Assembly (NCBI RefSeq): GCF_006345805.1
Contig: NC_043007.1
Location: 41,354,001-41,418,000, forward strand
DNA length: 64,000 nucleotides
Direction of reading: 5' to 3'
Source of the DNA: Octopus sinensis
Lineage: Eukaryota
A program made the position numbers and the translations under genes. The notes beneath the pieces are model-generated. The model had not been told where the DNA came from. It saw nothing but the letters and a program-made list of their open reading frames with translations, and did not search any database. Of the stretch, positions 13,609 through 62,522 are shown piece by piece. How positions within the stretch are numbered: the stretch's first letter is position 1; each line of letters starts with the position of its first letter.

Positions 13609-14149
13609 TGTGAGAAATAAGTAATTGTACCAACACTATTTTATATAAATAAGGCTTATGTTATTGTTTTGTTTTTAAAAGTTTATAGACAGAATTGACT
13701 CTAAAAAGAAACACCACCACATCCATTGCAGTCTTATGGTAGGGGCCCCACAAGTCTGATAGATTACAATTATGATCTATGTGTGTCTGTTGTGGTTTTT
13801 TATCAATAAATAAATGCTATAGGTCCCAATGCATTGATTTGCCTGCCCAGGGGTGTTTATAATGCTGCTAAGACAGCCTTGACCACAACCTCTCTCTTTT
13901 TATGTATGCGTCTGCTAGAGTCTTGACAAAGACATTTCTTTGGTATTAAGAAACAATTGTGTTACTATGTAATTCCTTCATATTGTTGTGATGCTTCTCA
14001 TCTATAAATATAGCAATTATGATTTTAGGTATGATCAGCATAAATACTTAAAATTTCCTTCCCACATACTCATTCACTAAACTTGTTAAAGTTTGCTGAA
14101 TGAATATATTTGTTTCATTGTTGCTTAACCATTTATATAACCTACCTTA

Positions 14150-14492
14150 TTTCGTTTTTGGATTTGGTTTGCAAGATTCTTTATACGAGTTTGTGTGTTG
14201 AAGCATATTCTGTTGTGTCTGGGGAGAGTCATTTTCTTTTTGTGCTTTATAATTTAACACACTCACCGGTAAAATTTCCACTTATTTTTATTTTCCTAAA
14301 ATTTTCGTTGCGTCTTGCAACCTTTTCAATAGTTTTCAGTTGTCTTTAGTAGTCTTCAAGACTATCAAAAAGGTTGCAAGATGCAACGAAAATTTTAGGA
14401 AAATAAAAATAAGAAATAAGTGGAAATTTTACTGGTGTGTGTGTTAAATTATAAGGCATAAAAAGAAAATTACTCTCCCCAGACACAGCAGA
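14150..14492. mobile_element. Head-to-head palindromic Penelope-like insert with 13-bp TSD
   Basis: Arms 14206-14333 / 14361-14495; direct repeat ATAACCTACCTTA at 14137-14149 and 14493-14505. Confidence 0.8.
14295..14333 (-). ncRNA. Minimal hammerhead-like motif with U3-A8 core variant
   Basis: CUA-UUGAAAA-G-GUUGC(aagac)GCAAC-GAA-AAUU-U-UAG; mirror copy on + at 14361-14399. Confidence 0.55.
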
Positions 14493-16679
14493 ATAACCTA
14501 CCTTAGTGAGTGTGAAAAGTACAAGTTTTTAGGTATACCAAGAGGTAAATATCTTTTAAGATTCACGATTGAATGAACCCAAACAAAAATGATTTTTTAA
14601 CAAATTTATTCTGTAAGGCAACACAAATGAGGTAACACATTGTCTCATGCCTGGGGACTTAATAAGGTCCCACTGTTTGACTATAGTAACTTCAGATTGA
14701 TCTCATCCTCAGAATCAAAACATCCCTGAGGTTGTAATTAATCCATTTGAAGACTGTCAAAGGGACCTTTCCTGTTATTGGTAGCTGGTTTAATCTGTTG
14801 CCCATTATAACACCAATGTTGTTGGCCTGAGAATAGCTTCATTGTTTCTCTGCTCCTGTCTTAGAGGCCCTAAAAAGGACTGAACCTGAAACCATGTGAT
14901 TTGAATGTGAACTTCTTAACCACACACGCAGCCATGCTTATACCAGTTGTGCCTCACTGTTTATTCAGTTTTCTTACAGCTATTGTCATAGATCTTCTGC
15001 TTAGAGTAGGATTAGCAGAGTCTCAAATTGCATTCAGCCTGCTTAACTGCTGTGCAGTCCTCATCATATGTCAAATTTATGTTGTATTTATTTCAGAATT
15101 TAGAAACAAGCCTACTACTACCAGGCACACACGCATATATATCTTTATATATAGCATGTAAACATTACCTGTTAAAGGTAATTTTCTCTTGTGTTTAAAT
15201 GAACACTATTTTATATTGAGAATATGTTGTCTATTGACTTTTTATACATGCTAGGCCACTGGTGGTGAAATTTCTAAAAATATTCACTACCCTATATAAT
15301 TTACGAATACAATTTTAGCATTTTGAAGATTGGTTTGGCATTTTTCACTTATTGCCAACTGAAACTGCACTTGCATGGAGAATTTTGTAAAATTATAACA
15401 TATAATGATGAGACACGTGTTATTTGTCTTTAAATTATGTTAATTGTTATGTCATAGTTACTGATGAGGATTCGCCTAGTAAATTATGTCAAAATTGAAA
15501 TATATCAGTTGTAAAGTCCACACAATCTATTGTAGTTTAACACAGAAAAATCATTTTATATTGATATATATATGACGATGATGATGATATATATATATAG
15601 TTTTACGTTATAGCTACTTTATCTGGGGATTTTTTCCTACAACCCACTCCACCCTTTTGATACCAATCTGCTTGAAATTGACCTTGGATTTATGATACGG
15701 ACTCCCTGTTTTAAAATGATCTTAATTTAAACTTTCTATCTACATTTCATGTCAGTTTAGGTTTCAAATACCAACTTAATGACAAAATTATTTGATTAAA
15801 TTTTTGATTATTTCCAAAATTAATTGAAACAAAGACTGTATTTTAGCAGAAATGTGGTAACAAAAGGGTTAAAGCTACAGAAAATATGCTAGCCTGTATC
15901 TAATACGTTACCTGTTCATAGCATGTCTGTTAATTAGATTCAAATAGAATTTTTCTACTTTAATAATCAGATTCTTAATTTCTTTACTCAATTCAATGCT
16001 GTTTTACCACACAGTCAAGATAAAAACAATTTTTGAAGTCAAATTCTTCTGTGCCCTTCTATATTATGCTTCATTCTTCTACGTTGTTAAATCATATTTC
16101 TGTGGTGTGTTTCAATATTTGCTGTCATTGTACTTGTTAATTCTATACCACCGGATGATTAATTTCTGATATCTCTGTATACTCTATATTTATAGCTTTA
16201 TCAATATTATCAAACTAAAGACAGTGTGTCCTTGGCTACCTTTACACTTAAATGGTTTACAATGTTCTATCACTGACCTATAGATTATTGGTTCAAACCC
16301 ACTACTGGGGTTTCATTTTTTCTGAACTGTACCCCCCTCAGCTGTTTGAAAGAATGTTTCTTGGGTAGATGTACAGCTGTAATAGTTATGGGTAGACTGG
16401 CATTATAGAAAGTGAAAGTATTTTTTGTCTTTAATTGAGGCTATGTGTTTATTGTAATTGCTGCAGTTGGTATTTAGCCCTGAGTCAGCTGTATGATCAA
16501 AGGCATTTTAACTATGATTTTCACATCAGTATAATTGTTTTAAAATGGTAAAGTATGATTTGAGGGTGATTTAGCTGCTATTTCTACCAGATTGAGTGAC
16601 AGTCTAGAGACTCCTTTGTTGAATGGTGTAGTTATTGTCGTTGGGTATCCAAGAGTAACCCCAATCAAGCAGTTCTATT

Positions 16680-53250: not shown

Positions 53251-55760
53251 TCAGGCCATAACCCGTGGCCCCTACCTGGGACGTAGTCAGTCCTCCTGTG
53301 CATACCTTCCTTCTTGTGACACTTATGAAGACCTGTTGAGGCAAGTGAAAATCAAATCAAAACAAATCAAAATAGATGAACATCAGTGGAATTGTATTCT
53401 TTGTGGTACCAGTGCCGGTGGCACACAAGAAAACCACTCGAACGTGGCCGTAGCCAGTACCGCATCGACTGGCCTCCGTGCTGTGGGCACAACAAACACC
53501 ACCCGATCGTGGCCGTTCGGGCCGTAGCCAGTACTGCATCGACTGGCCTCCGTGCTGTGGGCACAACAAACACCATCCGATCGTGGCCGTTCGCCAGCCT
53601 CATCTGGCACCTGTGTCGGTGGAACATAAAAACACCATCCGAAGACCCGGCAACGTAGTCAGTCCACCTGTGCATACCTTCCCTCTTATGACACTTGTGA
53701 AGACCTGTTGAGGCAAGTGTGTGACACTTGTGAAGACCTGTTGAGGCAGAGGCAAGTGTGTGACACTTGTGAAGACCTGTTGAGGCAGAGGCAGTGTGTG
53801 TGACACTTGTGGAGACCTGTTGAGGCAAGTGTGTGACACGTGTGACACTTGTGAAGACCTGTTGAGGCAAGTGAAAATCAAACCAAATCAAAATAGATGA
53901 ACATCAATGGAATTTGTATCTTTGTGGTTCCAGTACCGGTGGCACACACAGAAAACCACCATCCGAACGTGGCCGTAGCCAGTACCGCATCGACTGGCCT
54001 CCGTGCTGTGGGCACAACAAACACCATCTGATCATGGCCGTTCGCCAGCCTCATCTGGCACCTGTGTCGGTGGCACATAAAAACACCATCCGAAAAGACC
54101 GGCAACGTAGTCAGTCCACCTGTGCATACCTTCCTTCTTATGACACTTGTGAAGACCTATTGAGGCAAGTGTGTGACACTTGTGTAGACCTGTTGAGGCA
54201 AGTGAAAATCAAATCAAATCAAACCAAATCAAAATAGATGAACATCAATGGAATTTGTATCTTTGTGGTACCAGTACCGGTGGCACACAAGAAAACCATC
54301 CGAACGTGGCTGTAGCCAGTACTGCATCGACTGGCCTCTGTGATGTGGGCACATAACAAACACCATCCGATCGTGGTGGCCCCTACCTGGGAGTCCACCT
54401 GTGCATACCTTCCTTCTTGTGACACTTGTGAAGACCTGTTGAGGCAAGTGAAAATCAACAAATCAAAAAATCAAAAAATCAAAACAAATCAAAATAGATG
54501 AACATCATTGGAATCTGTATCTCTGTGGTACCAGTGCCGGTGGCACACAAGAAAACCATTCGATCGTGGCTGTAGCCAGTACCGCATCGACTGGCCTCCG
54601 TGCTGTGGGCACATAACAAACGCCATCCGATCGTGGCCGTTCGCCAGCCTCATCTGGCACCTGTCCGAAGACCCGGCAAGACTAGTCAGGCCATAACCCG
54701 TGGCCCCTTCCTGGGACGTAGTCAGTCCACCTGTGCATACCTTCCTTCTTATGACACTTGTGAAGGACCTGTTTTGAGCAAGTGCTAATCTAATCTAATC
54801 AAATCAAATGACACTTGTGAAGACCTTTTGAGGCAATGATATAATAATAATAATAATAATAATAATCATATCATAATCATAATCAAATCCAATCAAAACA
54901 AATCAAAATAGATGAACATCAATGGAATTTGTATCTTTGTGGTACCAATGCCGGTGGCACACAAGAAAACCATCTGAACGTGGCGGTAGCCAGTACCACA
55001 TCGTGCTGTGGGCACGTAACAAACACCATCCGATCGTGGCCGTTCGCCAGCCTCATCTGGCACCTGTGTTGGTGGCACATAAAAACACCATCCAAAGACC
55101 CGGCAAGACTAGTCAGGCCATAACCCATGGCCCCTACCTGGGACGTAGTCAGTCTACCTGTGCATACCTTCCTTCTTATGACACTTGTGAAGACCTGTTG
55201 AGGCAAGTATGTGACACTTGTGAAGACCTGTTGAGGCAAGTGAAAATCAAATCAAACCAAATCAAAATAGATGAACATCAATGGAATTTGTATCTTTGTG
55301 GTACCAGTGCCGGTGGCACACAAGAAAACCATCCGAACGTGGCCGTAGCCAGTACCGCATCGACTGGCCTCCGTGCTGTGGGCACGTAACAAACACCATC
55401 CGATCATGGCCGTTCGCCAGCCTCATCTAGCACTTGTGTCGGTGGCACATAAAAACACCATCCGAGTGTGGCTGTCTGCCAGCCTCGTCTGGCACCTGTG
55501 TCGGTGGCACATAAAAAAAAAACACCATCCGAGCGTGGCCGTTCACCAGCCTCGTCTGGCACCTGTGTCAGTGGCACATAAAATCACCCACTACACTCTT
55601 GGAGTGGTTGGCGTTAGGAAGGGCATCCAGCTGTAGAAACACTGCCAGATCTGACTGGCCTGGTGCAGCCTTCGGGCTCCCCAGACTCCAGTTGAACCGT
55701 CCAACCCATGCTAGCATGGAAAGCGGACGTTAAATGAGGATGATGATGATGATGATGATA
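53233..55760 (+). repeat. Complex tandem array (six units of about 260-520 bp) built from the RTE 3' UTR, ending in the normal (GAT)n tail
   Basis: Landmark aaaatagatgaacatca occurs six times (about 53370, 53890, 54230, 54490, 54905, 55265). Sub-repeats tgacacttgtgaagacctgttgaggcaag and (AAATC)n vary in number. Confidence 0.9.
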
Positions 55761-55792
55761 TATATACATATATATATATACATATATATATA

Positions 55793-56100
55793 TCATCATC
55801 ATCATCGTTTAACGTCTGTTTTCCGTGCTAGCACGGGTTGGACGGTTCAACCGGGGTCTGGGGGAGCCAGAAGGCTGCACCAGGCTCCAGTCTGGTCTGG
55901 CAGTGTTTCTACAGCTGGATGCCCTTCCTAACGCCAACCACTCCGCGAGTGTAGTGGGTGCCTTTTACGTGCCACCTGCACAGGTGCCAGAGGGGTCTGG
56001 CATCGGCCACGGTCGGTTGGTGCTTTTTATGTGCCACCTGCACAGAAGCCAGTCGGGGTGGTGCTGGCATCGGCCACGTTCGGATGGTGCTTTTTATGTG
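55793..56100 (-). mobile_element. RTE-tail SINE-like copy, tail-to-tail with the RTE array
   Basis: Reverse complement of 55590-55760 (ggagtggttggcgttaggaagggcatccagctgtagaaac...gttaaacgatgatgat). Confidence 0.85.
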
Positions 56101-60850: not shown

Positions 60851-62522
60851 TTTGCCTTTCACTATTGTTAACAATTTCACTACTGCTGTTAGCCACATAA
60901 ATACCACTTGTAGCCATTTCATTATCCTGCTAACTATTTTACAGTTGCTGTTAATAATTTTACTTAATTGATGGCAACTCTTCTACTACATTAGTTACCA
61001 TTTCACTACACCATTGATGGTTCTCATTTGACCATCCTTCCTCTGGCACTCCATCACAACATTCCTTTTATTTCCTTTTCAACTACTCCCACCCACTTCT
61101 ATTCATAATGTGCTGTGAGTTAGCCATGTACCTCCTCTATAGCAAGATATCTGTGCTTGTCCCTCTGTCATACTTTAGCTTTACAACACTTGGCATAAAC
61201 CCCACTTACTCTCTCAGATATTCTCCACTTAGTAGTGGGAGCTTTCTCTTTTTCCTTTCCTTTTTTGTCTTGCAAGTTACTTGGCAATCTCAACAGTGCT
61301 GGTGACAGGAAAAAGACCCAGTACACACTGTAAGGTGGTTGATGTTAGGAAGGGTACTCAGATGTAGAAACCATGCCAAAGCTGACATTGGAAGCCAATG
61401 CAGCCTTGCAGCTCACCAGATGCAGCTAAACCATCCAATACATGGCAGCATGGAAAGGGACATCAAATGTTGAAGATGATGATGATGATCATCATCATCA
61501 CCACCACCACCACCACCACCAAAACCACCACTACCACAACCACCACCCTGATGATTATGAAGATAATGGTGATGATAATGACATTGACAATGATGATGGT
61601 GGTGGTAGTTGTGGTAGTGATGGTTTTGGCAGTGGTGATGAGGTTGATATTGATCATCATCATCATCAGCATCATGATTTAACATCCCCTTTCCATGCAA
61701 CTATGCATTGGATAGTTTGGCTGCATCTGGTGAGCTGCAAGGCCACATTGACCTCCAGTGTCAGCTTCAGCATGGTTTCCACTTCTGAGTACCCTTCCTA
61801 ACATCAACCACTTTACAGAGTGTACTGGGAGCTTTTTCCATGTCACCAGTGCTGCTGAGGTTGCCAAGTCGTTGATGATGTCATCATCATCATCATCATC
61901 ATCAAAGAAGAAGAAGAAGAACCAAGGCTGGAAATGAATTTTTGCTTTGGTTAAAGATTAATCTTTATACGAACTGGTCTTTGGAATACAAAGCCACTGC
62001 TTTCAAATAGATTATATCAATACACAAACACAAACACAAAGAGAAGATTTATTAACAAATTTCGCCAAACTCAGCTATTGTTGCTCAGTGTAAGGTAGAG
62101 TCAGTTAGCCACTGCTATCACACTGAACACCAGGCCATATCAGGTGTTATATTTTGGATACCTTCATACTTTTATACCTTTCTAGAGGATGAAGAACAAT
62201 CAATTATGTTGATGTTGTTGGCAGAACACATAGCATGGATCTACCAAAAATAAATCGAGGACAGGAATTCCTGGCATGGTGTGGTATGAAATGCATCTCA
62301 ATTATCTTTTATTTGTTTTGGCCATTTGACTGTGGCCATGCTGGGGCACCTCCTTGATGAATGTTAGTCAAATGAATCAATCCCAGTACTTTTGTTTTTT
62401 AAGCCTGGTACTTATTCTATTGGTCTCTTTTGTTGAGCTGCAAAGTTACGGGCGACATAAACACAACAACACCAGTTGTCAAGCAGAGGATGGGTAACAC
62501 ACACACACACACACACATACAA

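What the first reader, a model, noticed from the sequence alone, without database searches (positions are those of the whole stretch)
14137..14505. Palindromic insert with 13-bp TSD and a non-canonical U3-A8 hammerhead core
Seen: the minus arm reads CUA UUGAAAA g GUUGC aagac GCAAC GAA AAUU U UAG, with all three stems placed correctly but the C3-G8 pair replaced by U3-A8. Both arms begin just upstream of the motif. The TSD is ATAACCTACCTTA. Established: C3-G8 is a tertiary Watson-Crick pair that tolerates compensatory swaps. Caveat: the + arm has ctatcaaaaag, so the ancestor could have been UCGAAAA with CpG decay in each arm. Standard CUGANGA searches would miss this family.
Basis: partly seen in the sequence, partly recalled or inferred. 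Interest (0 to 1): 0.72.

Follow-up and report, generated by a model that had tools for sequence, protein, structure and literature searches.

The report
Penelope retrotransposon ends with variant hammerhead
This is one of thousands of short head-to-head scraps of a Penelope-like retrotransposon carrying an already described U3-A8 variant of the hammerhead ribozyme motif; related families in the same genome carry mismatched versions of that pair, so cleavage is likely dispensable for the element's spread.

Summary
Window 14150-14492 is an inverted pair of arms between a 13-bp direct repeat, and the minus arm has a minimal type I hammerhead layout with U3-A8. It is a fragment of an abundant Penelope-like retrotransposon (PLE). 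The same arm lies 280-729 nt behind a GIY-YIG domain in 23 of 30 loci and encodes the first 27 codons of the element's ORF. One arm carries the PLE 'tail'. U3-A8 is the family state (83 of 86 arms), so the CpG-decay caveat fails. It is not new: natural U3-A8 cores were published in 2011, and in PLE minimal hammerheads in 2014, including the same UUGAAAA core. No arm starts at the predicted cut site (0 of 146); 5' ends pile up 39-46 nt upstream of it. In this palindromic copy the motif is predicted to be buried in a long hairpin. Cleavage was not tested.

The parts
14137..14149 (.). Left target-site duplication (13 bp)
   Evidence: 57 of 77 measurable head-to-head copies have a 10-17 nt flanking repeat
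14150..14205 (-). 56-nt PLE 'tail', on this arm only; codons ~10-27 of the parent ORF
   Evidence: exactly one tail in 78 of 84 pairs, never two
14150..14336 (-). Long arm: pLTR end from 7 nt before U3 to the tail end
   Evidence: same arm 280-729 nt downstream of GIY-YIG in 23 of 30 loci
14150..14232 (-). Start of the parent ORF (ATG at 14232-14230; MTLPRHNRICFNTQTRIKNLANQIQKR)
   Evidence: the frame continues open for 100 codons in 4 of 5 natural 5' copies translated
14296..14332 (-). Minimal type I hammerhead motif: stem I CUA/UAG, core UUGAAAA (U3 14329, A8 14324), extra G, stem II GUUGC/GCAAC, GAAA, helix III AAUU, U17; predicted cut between 14299 and 14298
   Evidence: activity untested
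14337..14355 (.). 19-nt junction filler; the plus-strand side forms a small local hairpin (TAGTCT/AGACTA)
   Evidence: junctions differ from copy to copy
14356..14492 (+). Short arm: pLTR end without tail; hammerhead core mutated (U4C, G5A)
14493..14505 (.). Right target-site duplication (13 bp)

Best explanation
The insert is a head-to-head pair of pseudo-LTR ends of an abundant endonuclease-bearing Penelope-like retrotransposon, likely made as a dead-end by-product of target-primed reverse transcription from an uncut element RNA. Shown: the arm is the parent's pLTR, one arm has the tail, the two arms share subfamily-diagnostic letters, and 5' ends lie upstream of the ribozyme, not at its cut site. 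Inferred: the parent's GIY-YIG nuclease makes a staggered cut in AT-rich DNA (the TSD); reverse transcription starts inside the RNA at the tail end and runs about 200 nt to a preferred 5' end about 13 nt before U3, probably the transcript start of an internal promoter; the second arm comes from fold-back of the cDNA or from a second priming on the same RNA and stops at the other start site, 56 nt short. The motif is the ordinary minimal PLE hammerhead in its known U3-A8 form. It would at best cleave slowly, as a dimer or with help from the element's protein, and in this copy it is predicted not to fold because the arms pair with each other.
For: Parent: GIY-YIG hit above the Pfam cut-off, YSRYVDD RT motif and CX4CxxC linker in natural open frames, arm downstream of GIY-YIG in 23 of 30 loci, arm plus tail running into the ORF start. 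Two 3' ends: 65 short and 64 long of 146 arms. One tail in 78 of 84 pairs; 49 of the 55 pairs not found with the whole-element query. Arm concordance at diagnostic sites 0.87 vs 0.50, 0.88 vs 0.59, 0.99 vs 0.73, 0.94 vs 0.69 expected, but close to expectation at the two CpG sites (0.82 vs 0.78, 0.89 vs 0.81). 5' ends: 0 of 146 at U1.1, 7 within 3 nt, 52 at -15 to -8 with 18 at -13. Fold: stem II probability 0.0 in the whole element on both strands, 0.99 in a tail-less solo arm. Same architecture in PMC3846280 (inverted pLTRs, optional tail, 8-10-bp TSD); two internal RT starts, both-strand extension and ribozyme-independent insertion in PMC11167929.
Against: No cleavage assay. No 5'-end mapping, so the -13 wall could be an RT stop or a recombination hot spot rather than a transcript start. 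Fold-back and double priming are not separated. 7 of 146 arms start within 3 nt of the cut site in an A/T-rich stretch where edges are blurred, so a small cleaved fraction is not excluded. No intact full-length parent was seen; the longest (L156) is frameshifted and lacks its 5' start. 16 of 77 measured pairs show no clear TSD.
Confidence: 0.9

Rival explanations
1. The motif is a fully working ribozyme under selection for cleavage, with U3-A8 a compensatory swap, and cleavage processes the element RNA in vivo.
For: U4, G5, A6, A9 stay at 85-91% in 75 older-family hits while position 7 and loop II vary. Stem I and helix III change on both sides between old and young families: GUCA/UGAC to CUA/UAG, G15.2-C16.2 to A15.2-U16.2. 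U3-A8 ribozymes are reported active in vitro (PMC3088659, passage).
Against: Positions 3 and 8 do not covary: U-A 34, C·A 18, U·G 13, C-G 4, other 6 of 75. No genomic 5' ends at the cut. No pile-up of read ends in three RNA runs, though fragmented libraries read at about 6% are a weak test. Stem I is only 3 bp in the young family.
Confidence: 0.3
2. The hammerhead fold is kept in this lineage for a non-catalytic role (protein binding, promoter or translation control), and catalysis was lost once the 3-8 pair broke.
For: Whole subfamilies amplified with C3·A8 or U3·G8; single 3 or 8 mutants abolish cleavage in another PLE without affecting insertion (PMC11167929, for C3G and G8C). The motif sits between the -13 wall and the ATG.
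Against: G5, A6 and A9, which matter for catalysis, persist across subfamilies, and G12-A14 are the majority in the young family. U·G and C·A states were not assayed and may retain activity.
Confidence: 0.3
3. The insert is a MITE-like DNA transposon or a tandem retrozyme, not a PLE by-product.
For: Short, palindromic, high copy, flanked by a direct repeat.
Against: Arms are head-to-head copies of an RT/GIY-YIG element's pLTR with an asymmetric tail and variable junctions; TSD length varies; 55 of 129 loci have a single arm orientation; among the first 100 rows the only same-strand pair under 1 kb that I examined is a local duplication of a truncated arm with a microsatellite.
Confidence: 0.03

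Closest known systems
Minimal hammerheads of metazoan PLEs, U3-A8 variant of Schistosoma mansoni Cercyon elements (Cervera and De la Pena 2014, PMC4209133)
   Same: Type I, no loop 3, palindromic 15.2-16.2, extra nucleotide between 9 and 10.1, G10.1-C11.1, in the pLTR, pairs on opposite strands 100-700 bp apart, U3-A8; their supplement lists S. mansoni(4) with core UUGAAAA.
   Different: Different host and element family; extra nucleotide is G (their consensus is H); 3-bp stem I; sister families with U3·G8 and C3·A8, which I did not see described in the parts I read.
Adineta vaga Penelope insertions (PMC3846280)
   Same: Inverted pLTRs head to head, optional tail on one arm, pLTR including the first codons of the ORF, palindromes at the junction, TSD.
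   Different: Tail 56 nt against 31; TSD mostly 10-17 against 8-10; here most sampled copies are bare pLTR ends.
PAc, Poseidon element of Anolis carolinensis (PMC11167929)
   Same: Two internal RT start sites bounding the tail; AT-rich targets; insertion from uncut RNA.
   Different: PAc has a canonical C3-G8 core and the ORF starts inside the ribozyme; here the ATG is 66 nt past the cut site in the window's long arm, and the parent has a Neptune/Nematis-type linker.
Natural U3-A8 hammerheads (Perreault et al. 2011, PMC3088659)
   Same: C3-G8 replaced by U3-A8 in nature.
   Different: The passage I read gives no PLE context for those examples; here helix III is absent in the monomer.

Membership tests
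EN+ Penelope-like element | Single ORF with RT and C-terminal GIY-YIG linked to this pLTR | tested here: met
   GIY-YIG PF01541 above cut-off; YSRYVDD in the same frame; arm downstream in 23 of 30 loci. The RT part gave no Pfam RT hit and is named from its motif by recall.
EN+ Penelope-like element | pLTRs in direct or inverted arrangement, with an optional tail at one end | tested here: met
   one tail in 78 of 84 pairs, none with two
EN+ Penelope-like element | pLTR includes the first codons of the ORF | tested here: met
EN+ Penelope-like element | Spliceosomal intron near the 5' end (some PLEs) | tested here: inconclusive
   A GTGAGT donor-like site lies in the pLTR; no matching splice joint among the 15 of 18 joints shown
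Neptune or Nematis clade | CX2-5CxxC linker before GIY-YIG | tested here: met
   CTNDNCMVC; motif definition from PMC8557442
Neptune clade | Placement in an RT tree with named clade members | not tested
   No named reference RTs were fetched
Minimal type I hammerhead of PLEs | Core U4 G5 A6 A9, G12 A13 A14, A15.1-U16.1, H17 and a 3-8 pair | tested here: met
   Majority letters in 86 arms: 85, 82, 84, 85; 77, 83, 86; 78/84; U17 83; U3-A8 83
Minimal type I hammerhead of PLEs | Extra nucleotide between 9 and 10.1, G10.1-C11.1, palindromic 15.2-16.2 | tested here: met
   the extra nucleotide is G, outside the published H consensus
Minimal type I hammerhead of PLEs | Self-cleavage (as dimer or protein-assisted) | not testable with these tools
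   Needs an in vitro assay
Rfam hammerhead families | Covariance-model match | tested here: not met
   No hammerhead family among 120 matches at E<=1
Non-LTR retrozyme | Head-to-tail tandem units, each with a hammerhead | tested here: not met
   This copy is a single inverted pair; first 100 rows are dispersed
MITE / DNA transposon | Symmetric terminal inverted repeats, fixed TSD length, transposase parent | tested here: not met

The most novel reading that the evidence does not exclude
This genome holds a natural evolutionary series in which the hammerhead's supposedly essential 3-8 pair has moved through C-G, U·G, C·A and U-A in successive amplifying PLE subfamilies while the rest of the core and the helices were kept. 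PLE hammerheads would then either tolerate a broken 3-8 pair when helped by the element's protein or be kept for a non-catalytic job. In addition, the tail that bounds the RT start sites can pair with stem II and may act as an off-switch that protein binding releases.
Probability: 0.4. Interest if true: 0.55.

Novelty: new member of a known kind. Interest (0 to 1): 0.3.

Why it matters
The flagged feature is known. Its value is as a test set for an open question, namely what hammerheads do in PLEs (PMC8557442 calls their function unclear and suggests they may simply parasitize the elements). Four natural 3/8 states in one lineage can be assayed side by side, and thousands of genomic junctions record where the template RNA began. 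It is also a reminder that CUGANGA descriptors undercount these motifs: 9 canonical matches against 2,582 for the young family with the core left free (the two patterns are not identical).

Tried and rejected
CpG-decayed UCGAAAA ancestor: rejected (0 of 86 arms; 2 of 100 rows). Same-strand pairs as full-length parents: L031 and L032 hold no PLE ORF; L121 holds two separate insertions. Intron GTGAGT...CCCCAG in the pLTR: would remove the ATG, and no such joint was shown; dropped. Distal helix AGAGUCA/UGACUCU: not in the predicted folds; dropped. Cap-derived extra G at the -13 junction: upstream letter A 8, G 6, T 4 of 18; no support. Two arms from independent templates: rejected by arm concordance. 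Covariation of tail with loop II: none seen, the tail is nearly invariant and coding. Run search: no RNA holder listed on record. PDB sequence search with the parent C-terminal frame: no match. Earlier findings of this scan: nothing. Lunse et al. 2016 on PLE hammerhead dimers was not held; it may describe core variants, and I know it only from a reference list and a review passage. Supplement file 1 of PMC4209133 was not searchable. Three scripts failed before giving the result wanted and one failed half-way (first part used).

Full report
Observation. Window 14150-14492 is flanked by ATAACCTACCTTA on both sides and consists of two inverted arms, 90-93% complementary, with 56 extra nt on the minus arm. 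The minus arm reads CUA UUGAAAA G GUUGC AAGAC GCAAC GAAA AUUU UAG (U3 = 14329). Its stem II and a 3-bp stem I appear in the minimum-energy fold of the 58-nt piece (z -2.25). The plus arm has UCAAAAA. Rfam gives no hammerhead match at E<=1.

Family. The genome (G000, 2.72 Gb) has 3,165 exact matches to a 24-nt stem II pattern and 4,907 to a 27-nt downstream pattern, none for the reversed controls; these count arms and are lower bounds. The 30 best whole-element hits share the layout and differ from the column majority by a median 4.4%. Of 129 distinct loci found with the downstream pattern, 74 have head-to-head arms and 55 a single orientation. Among 146 arms found through the downstream pattern, which does not look at the core, 86 have stem II and the 5' strand of stem I in register (the other 60 start further 3' or are damaged). 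Of these 86, 83 are U3-A8, 2 U3·G8, 1 C3·A8; 75 read UUGAAAA and none UCGAAAA. A hand count of the first 100 of 2,582 rows gives 78 UUGAAAA, 2 UCGAAAA and 0 CUGANGA. The CpG caveat therefore fails.

Parent. Longer copies continue upstream through a microsatellite-rich 3' UTR into a GIY-YIG domain (PF01541 above cut-off). In 23 of the 30 best GIY-YIG loci the arm follows on the same strand 280-729 nt later. Natural open frames show YSRYVDD and a CTNDNCMVC linker, the CX2-5CxxC motif of Neptune and Nematis PLEs (PMC8557442, passages); the clade was not tested with a tree. In 5' copies the arm and tail run on into the ORF, which starts at an ATG inside the arm; the window copy encodes the first 27 residues. 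No intact full-length copy was seen.

Architecture. Arms have two 3' ends (65 short, 64 long, 17 other of 146). Of 84 head-to-head pairs, 78 have exactly one tail, 6 none, 0 two; among the 55 not found with the whole-element query, 49, 6 and 0. Flanking repeats of 10-17 nt (one mismatch allowed) were found in 57 of 77 pairs whose ends could be placed, 4 lie in TA runs and 16 show none. The two arms of a pair agree at subfamily-diagnostic sites far above chance (0.87 vs 0.50, 0.88 vs 0.59, 0.99 vs 0.73, 0.94 vs 0.69) but close to chance at two CpG sites (0.82 vs 0.78, 0.89 vs 0.81), which points to one template and little later homogenisation. This is the PLE pattern of PMC3846280 (passages). 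PMC11167929 (parts 1-2 of 4) shows two internal RT starts that bound the tail, extension of both strands, insertion from uncut RNA and a protein-assisted ribozyme.

Where the copies begin. Measured against one natural copy (L391), 0 of 146 arms begin at U1.1, 7 begin within 3 nt of it, 100 include U3, and 52 begin 8-15 nt before U3 with a sharp wall at -13 (18 arms; 1 at -14, 2 at -15). So most inserted DNA came from uncut RNA with a preferred 5' end 44 nt upstream of the cut. Penelope has an internal promoter in its pLTR (PMC2377424, passages), so I read the wall as a probable transcript start; this is inference. It would explain the excess of ~200-nt inserts: internal RT initiation at the tail of the 5' pLTR leaves only that much template.

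Folding. In the whole palindrome the arms pair and stem II has probability 0.0 on either strand, and a transcript of either strand carries only one sense motif, so the two arms cannot form the dimer in cis. A tail-less solo arm forms stem II (0.99) and stem I weakly (0.28). With the tail, UCUUGCAAACC pairs with GGUUGCAAGA and stem II drops to 0.0; a match this good arose in 5 of 20,000 shuffles, a post-hoc test, and the tail shows no covariation with loop II.

RNA. Three raw-read runs coded organism B (about 6% of each read) cover the pLTR at roughly 80-260x in each orientation and the ORF start at under 10x; 92-93% of laid reads run on into unlike sequence; no place has a pile-up of ends. This fits passive read-through of dispersed copies. 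It says little about cleavage.

Sister subfamilies. A pattern with loop AAGAA gave 102 hits; in the 100 listed I count 48 U3·G8, 46 U3-A8, 3 C3-G8, 2 C3·A8, 1 other (by hand). A pattern for older relatives with stem I GUCA/UGAC gave 80 hits; in 75 script-read hits the states are U-A 34, C·A 18, U·G 13, C-G 4, other 6, while U4 68, G5 64, A6 67 and A9 66 hold, and position 7 and loop II vary. A tree of 163 copies built without the core letters (bootstrap not fully settled, midpoint root, no outgroup) separates a young U-A clade (37 rows, 100/98), a U·G group beside it, an 11-row clade with 8 C·A (97/89) and a 22-row clade with 11 U·G and 4 C-G (100/97). Some rows in the tree were picked on their core (L205-L243, L352-L363) and are not used for frequencies. 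The canonical relatives CUGAUGA-G-GUUGC fix the register, so position 8 is the one that changes. Stem II and the 5' strand of stem I were fixed by my patterns and count for nothing; the free 3' strands match them, giving two-sided changes in stem I and at 15.2-16.2 between old and young families. Only 9 genome matches have a canonical core with this stem II. So the fold and most of the core look conserved, but the 3-8 pair is not strictly kept. The order of changes is not established.

What is known. PMC4209133 (parts 1-2 of 4 read; supplement file 2 searched) describes minimal PLE hammerheads, pairs on opposite strands, and a U3-A8 variant with about 1,300 hits in S. mansoni; its alignment has an entry with core UUGAAAA. 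PMC3088659 (passages) reports natural U3-A8 covariation and says such ribozymes are active in vitro. I found no description of U3·G8 or C3·A8 subfamilies in searches, but most subscription papers, Lunse et al. 2016 among them, are not held. Also seen: part 1 of 5 of bioRxiv 10.64898/2026.07.22.740005, passages of PMC3884650 and PMC6765202, passages of PMC8557442.

Verdict. A real feature, correctly read, and a new member of a known kind: an inert PLE end fragment with a published core variant. Interest 0.3, owed mainly to the four-state series at positions 3 and 8 and the junction evidence for uncut templates, both of which are testable at the bench.

Noticed in passing
window 14337-14342 (minus) equivalent; L391 and 145 other arms: 5' ends of arms stop at a sharp wall 13 nt before U3 (AGAGTC...), 18 of 146 exactly there; a possible transcript start or RT stop.
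   Followed up: partly
window 14165-14175 with 14313-14322 (minus strand): The tail contains TCTTGCAAACC, complementary to GGTTGCAAGA of stem II; predicted to unfold the hammerhead in tailed RNA. Both contain the palindrome TTGCAA.
   Followed up: partly
window 14261-14269 (minus strand): CCG/GTGAGT donor-like site between the hammerhead and the ATG, conserved in the young family; no splice joint seen.
   Followed up: partly
L274-L351: Older subfamilies have a 2-nt loop 3 (GA, AG or AA) between G15.2 and C16.2, which in a dimer would give tandem purine-purine mismatches; the young family has lost it.
   Followed up: no
window 55694-55848: Another palindromic insert: about 60-nt inverted arms around GAT and TA microsatellites; similar CATGCTAGCATGGGTTGGA sequence appears in flanks of other loci (L074, L028), so probably a different common repeat.
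   Followed up: no
window 61466-61679: Inverted arrangement of GAT/CAT and CAC/GGT microsatellites between short inverted ends.
   Followed up: no
L120:5125-5436 (minus): Open frame with a P-loop (GTAGSGKS) that looks like a dynein heavy-chain exon (recalled likeness, not tested); the PLE copy there would be intronic.
   Followed up: no
L156:3900-4160 (minus): The parent ORF has an Asn/Thr-rich low-complexity stretch before the RT, like the Asn-rich inserts reported in rotifer Penelope ORFs (PMC3846280).
   Followed up: no
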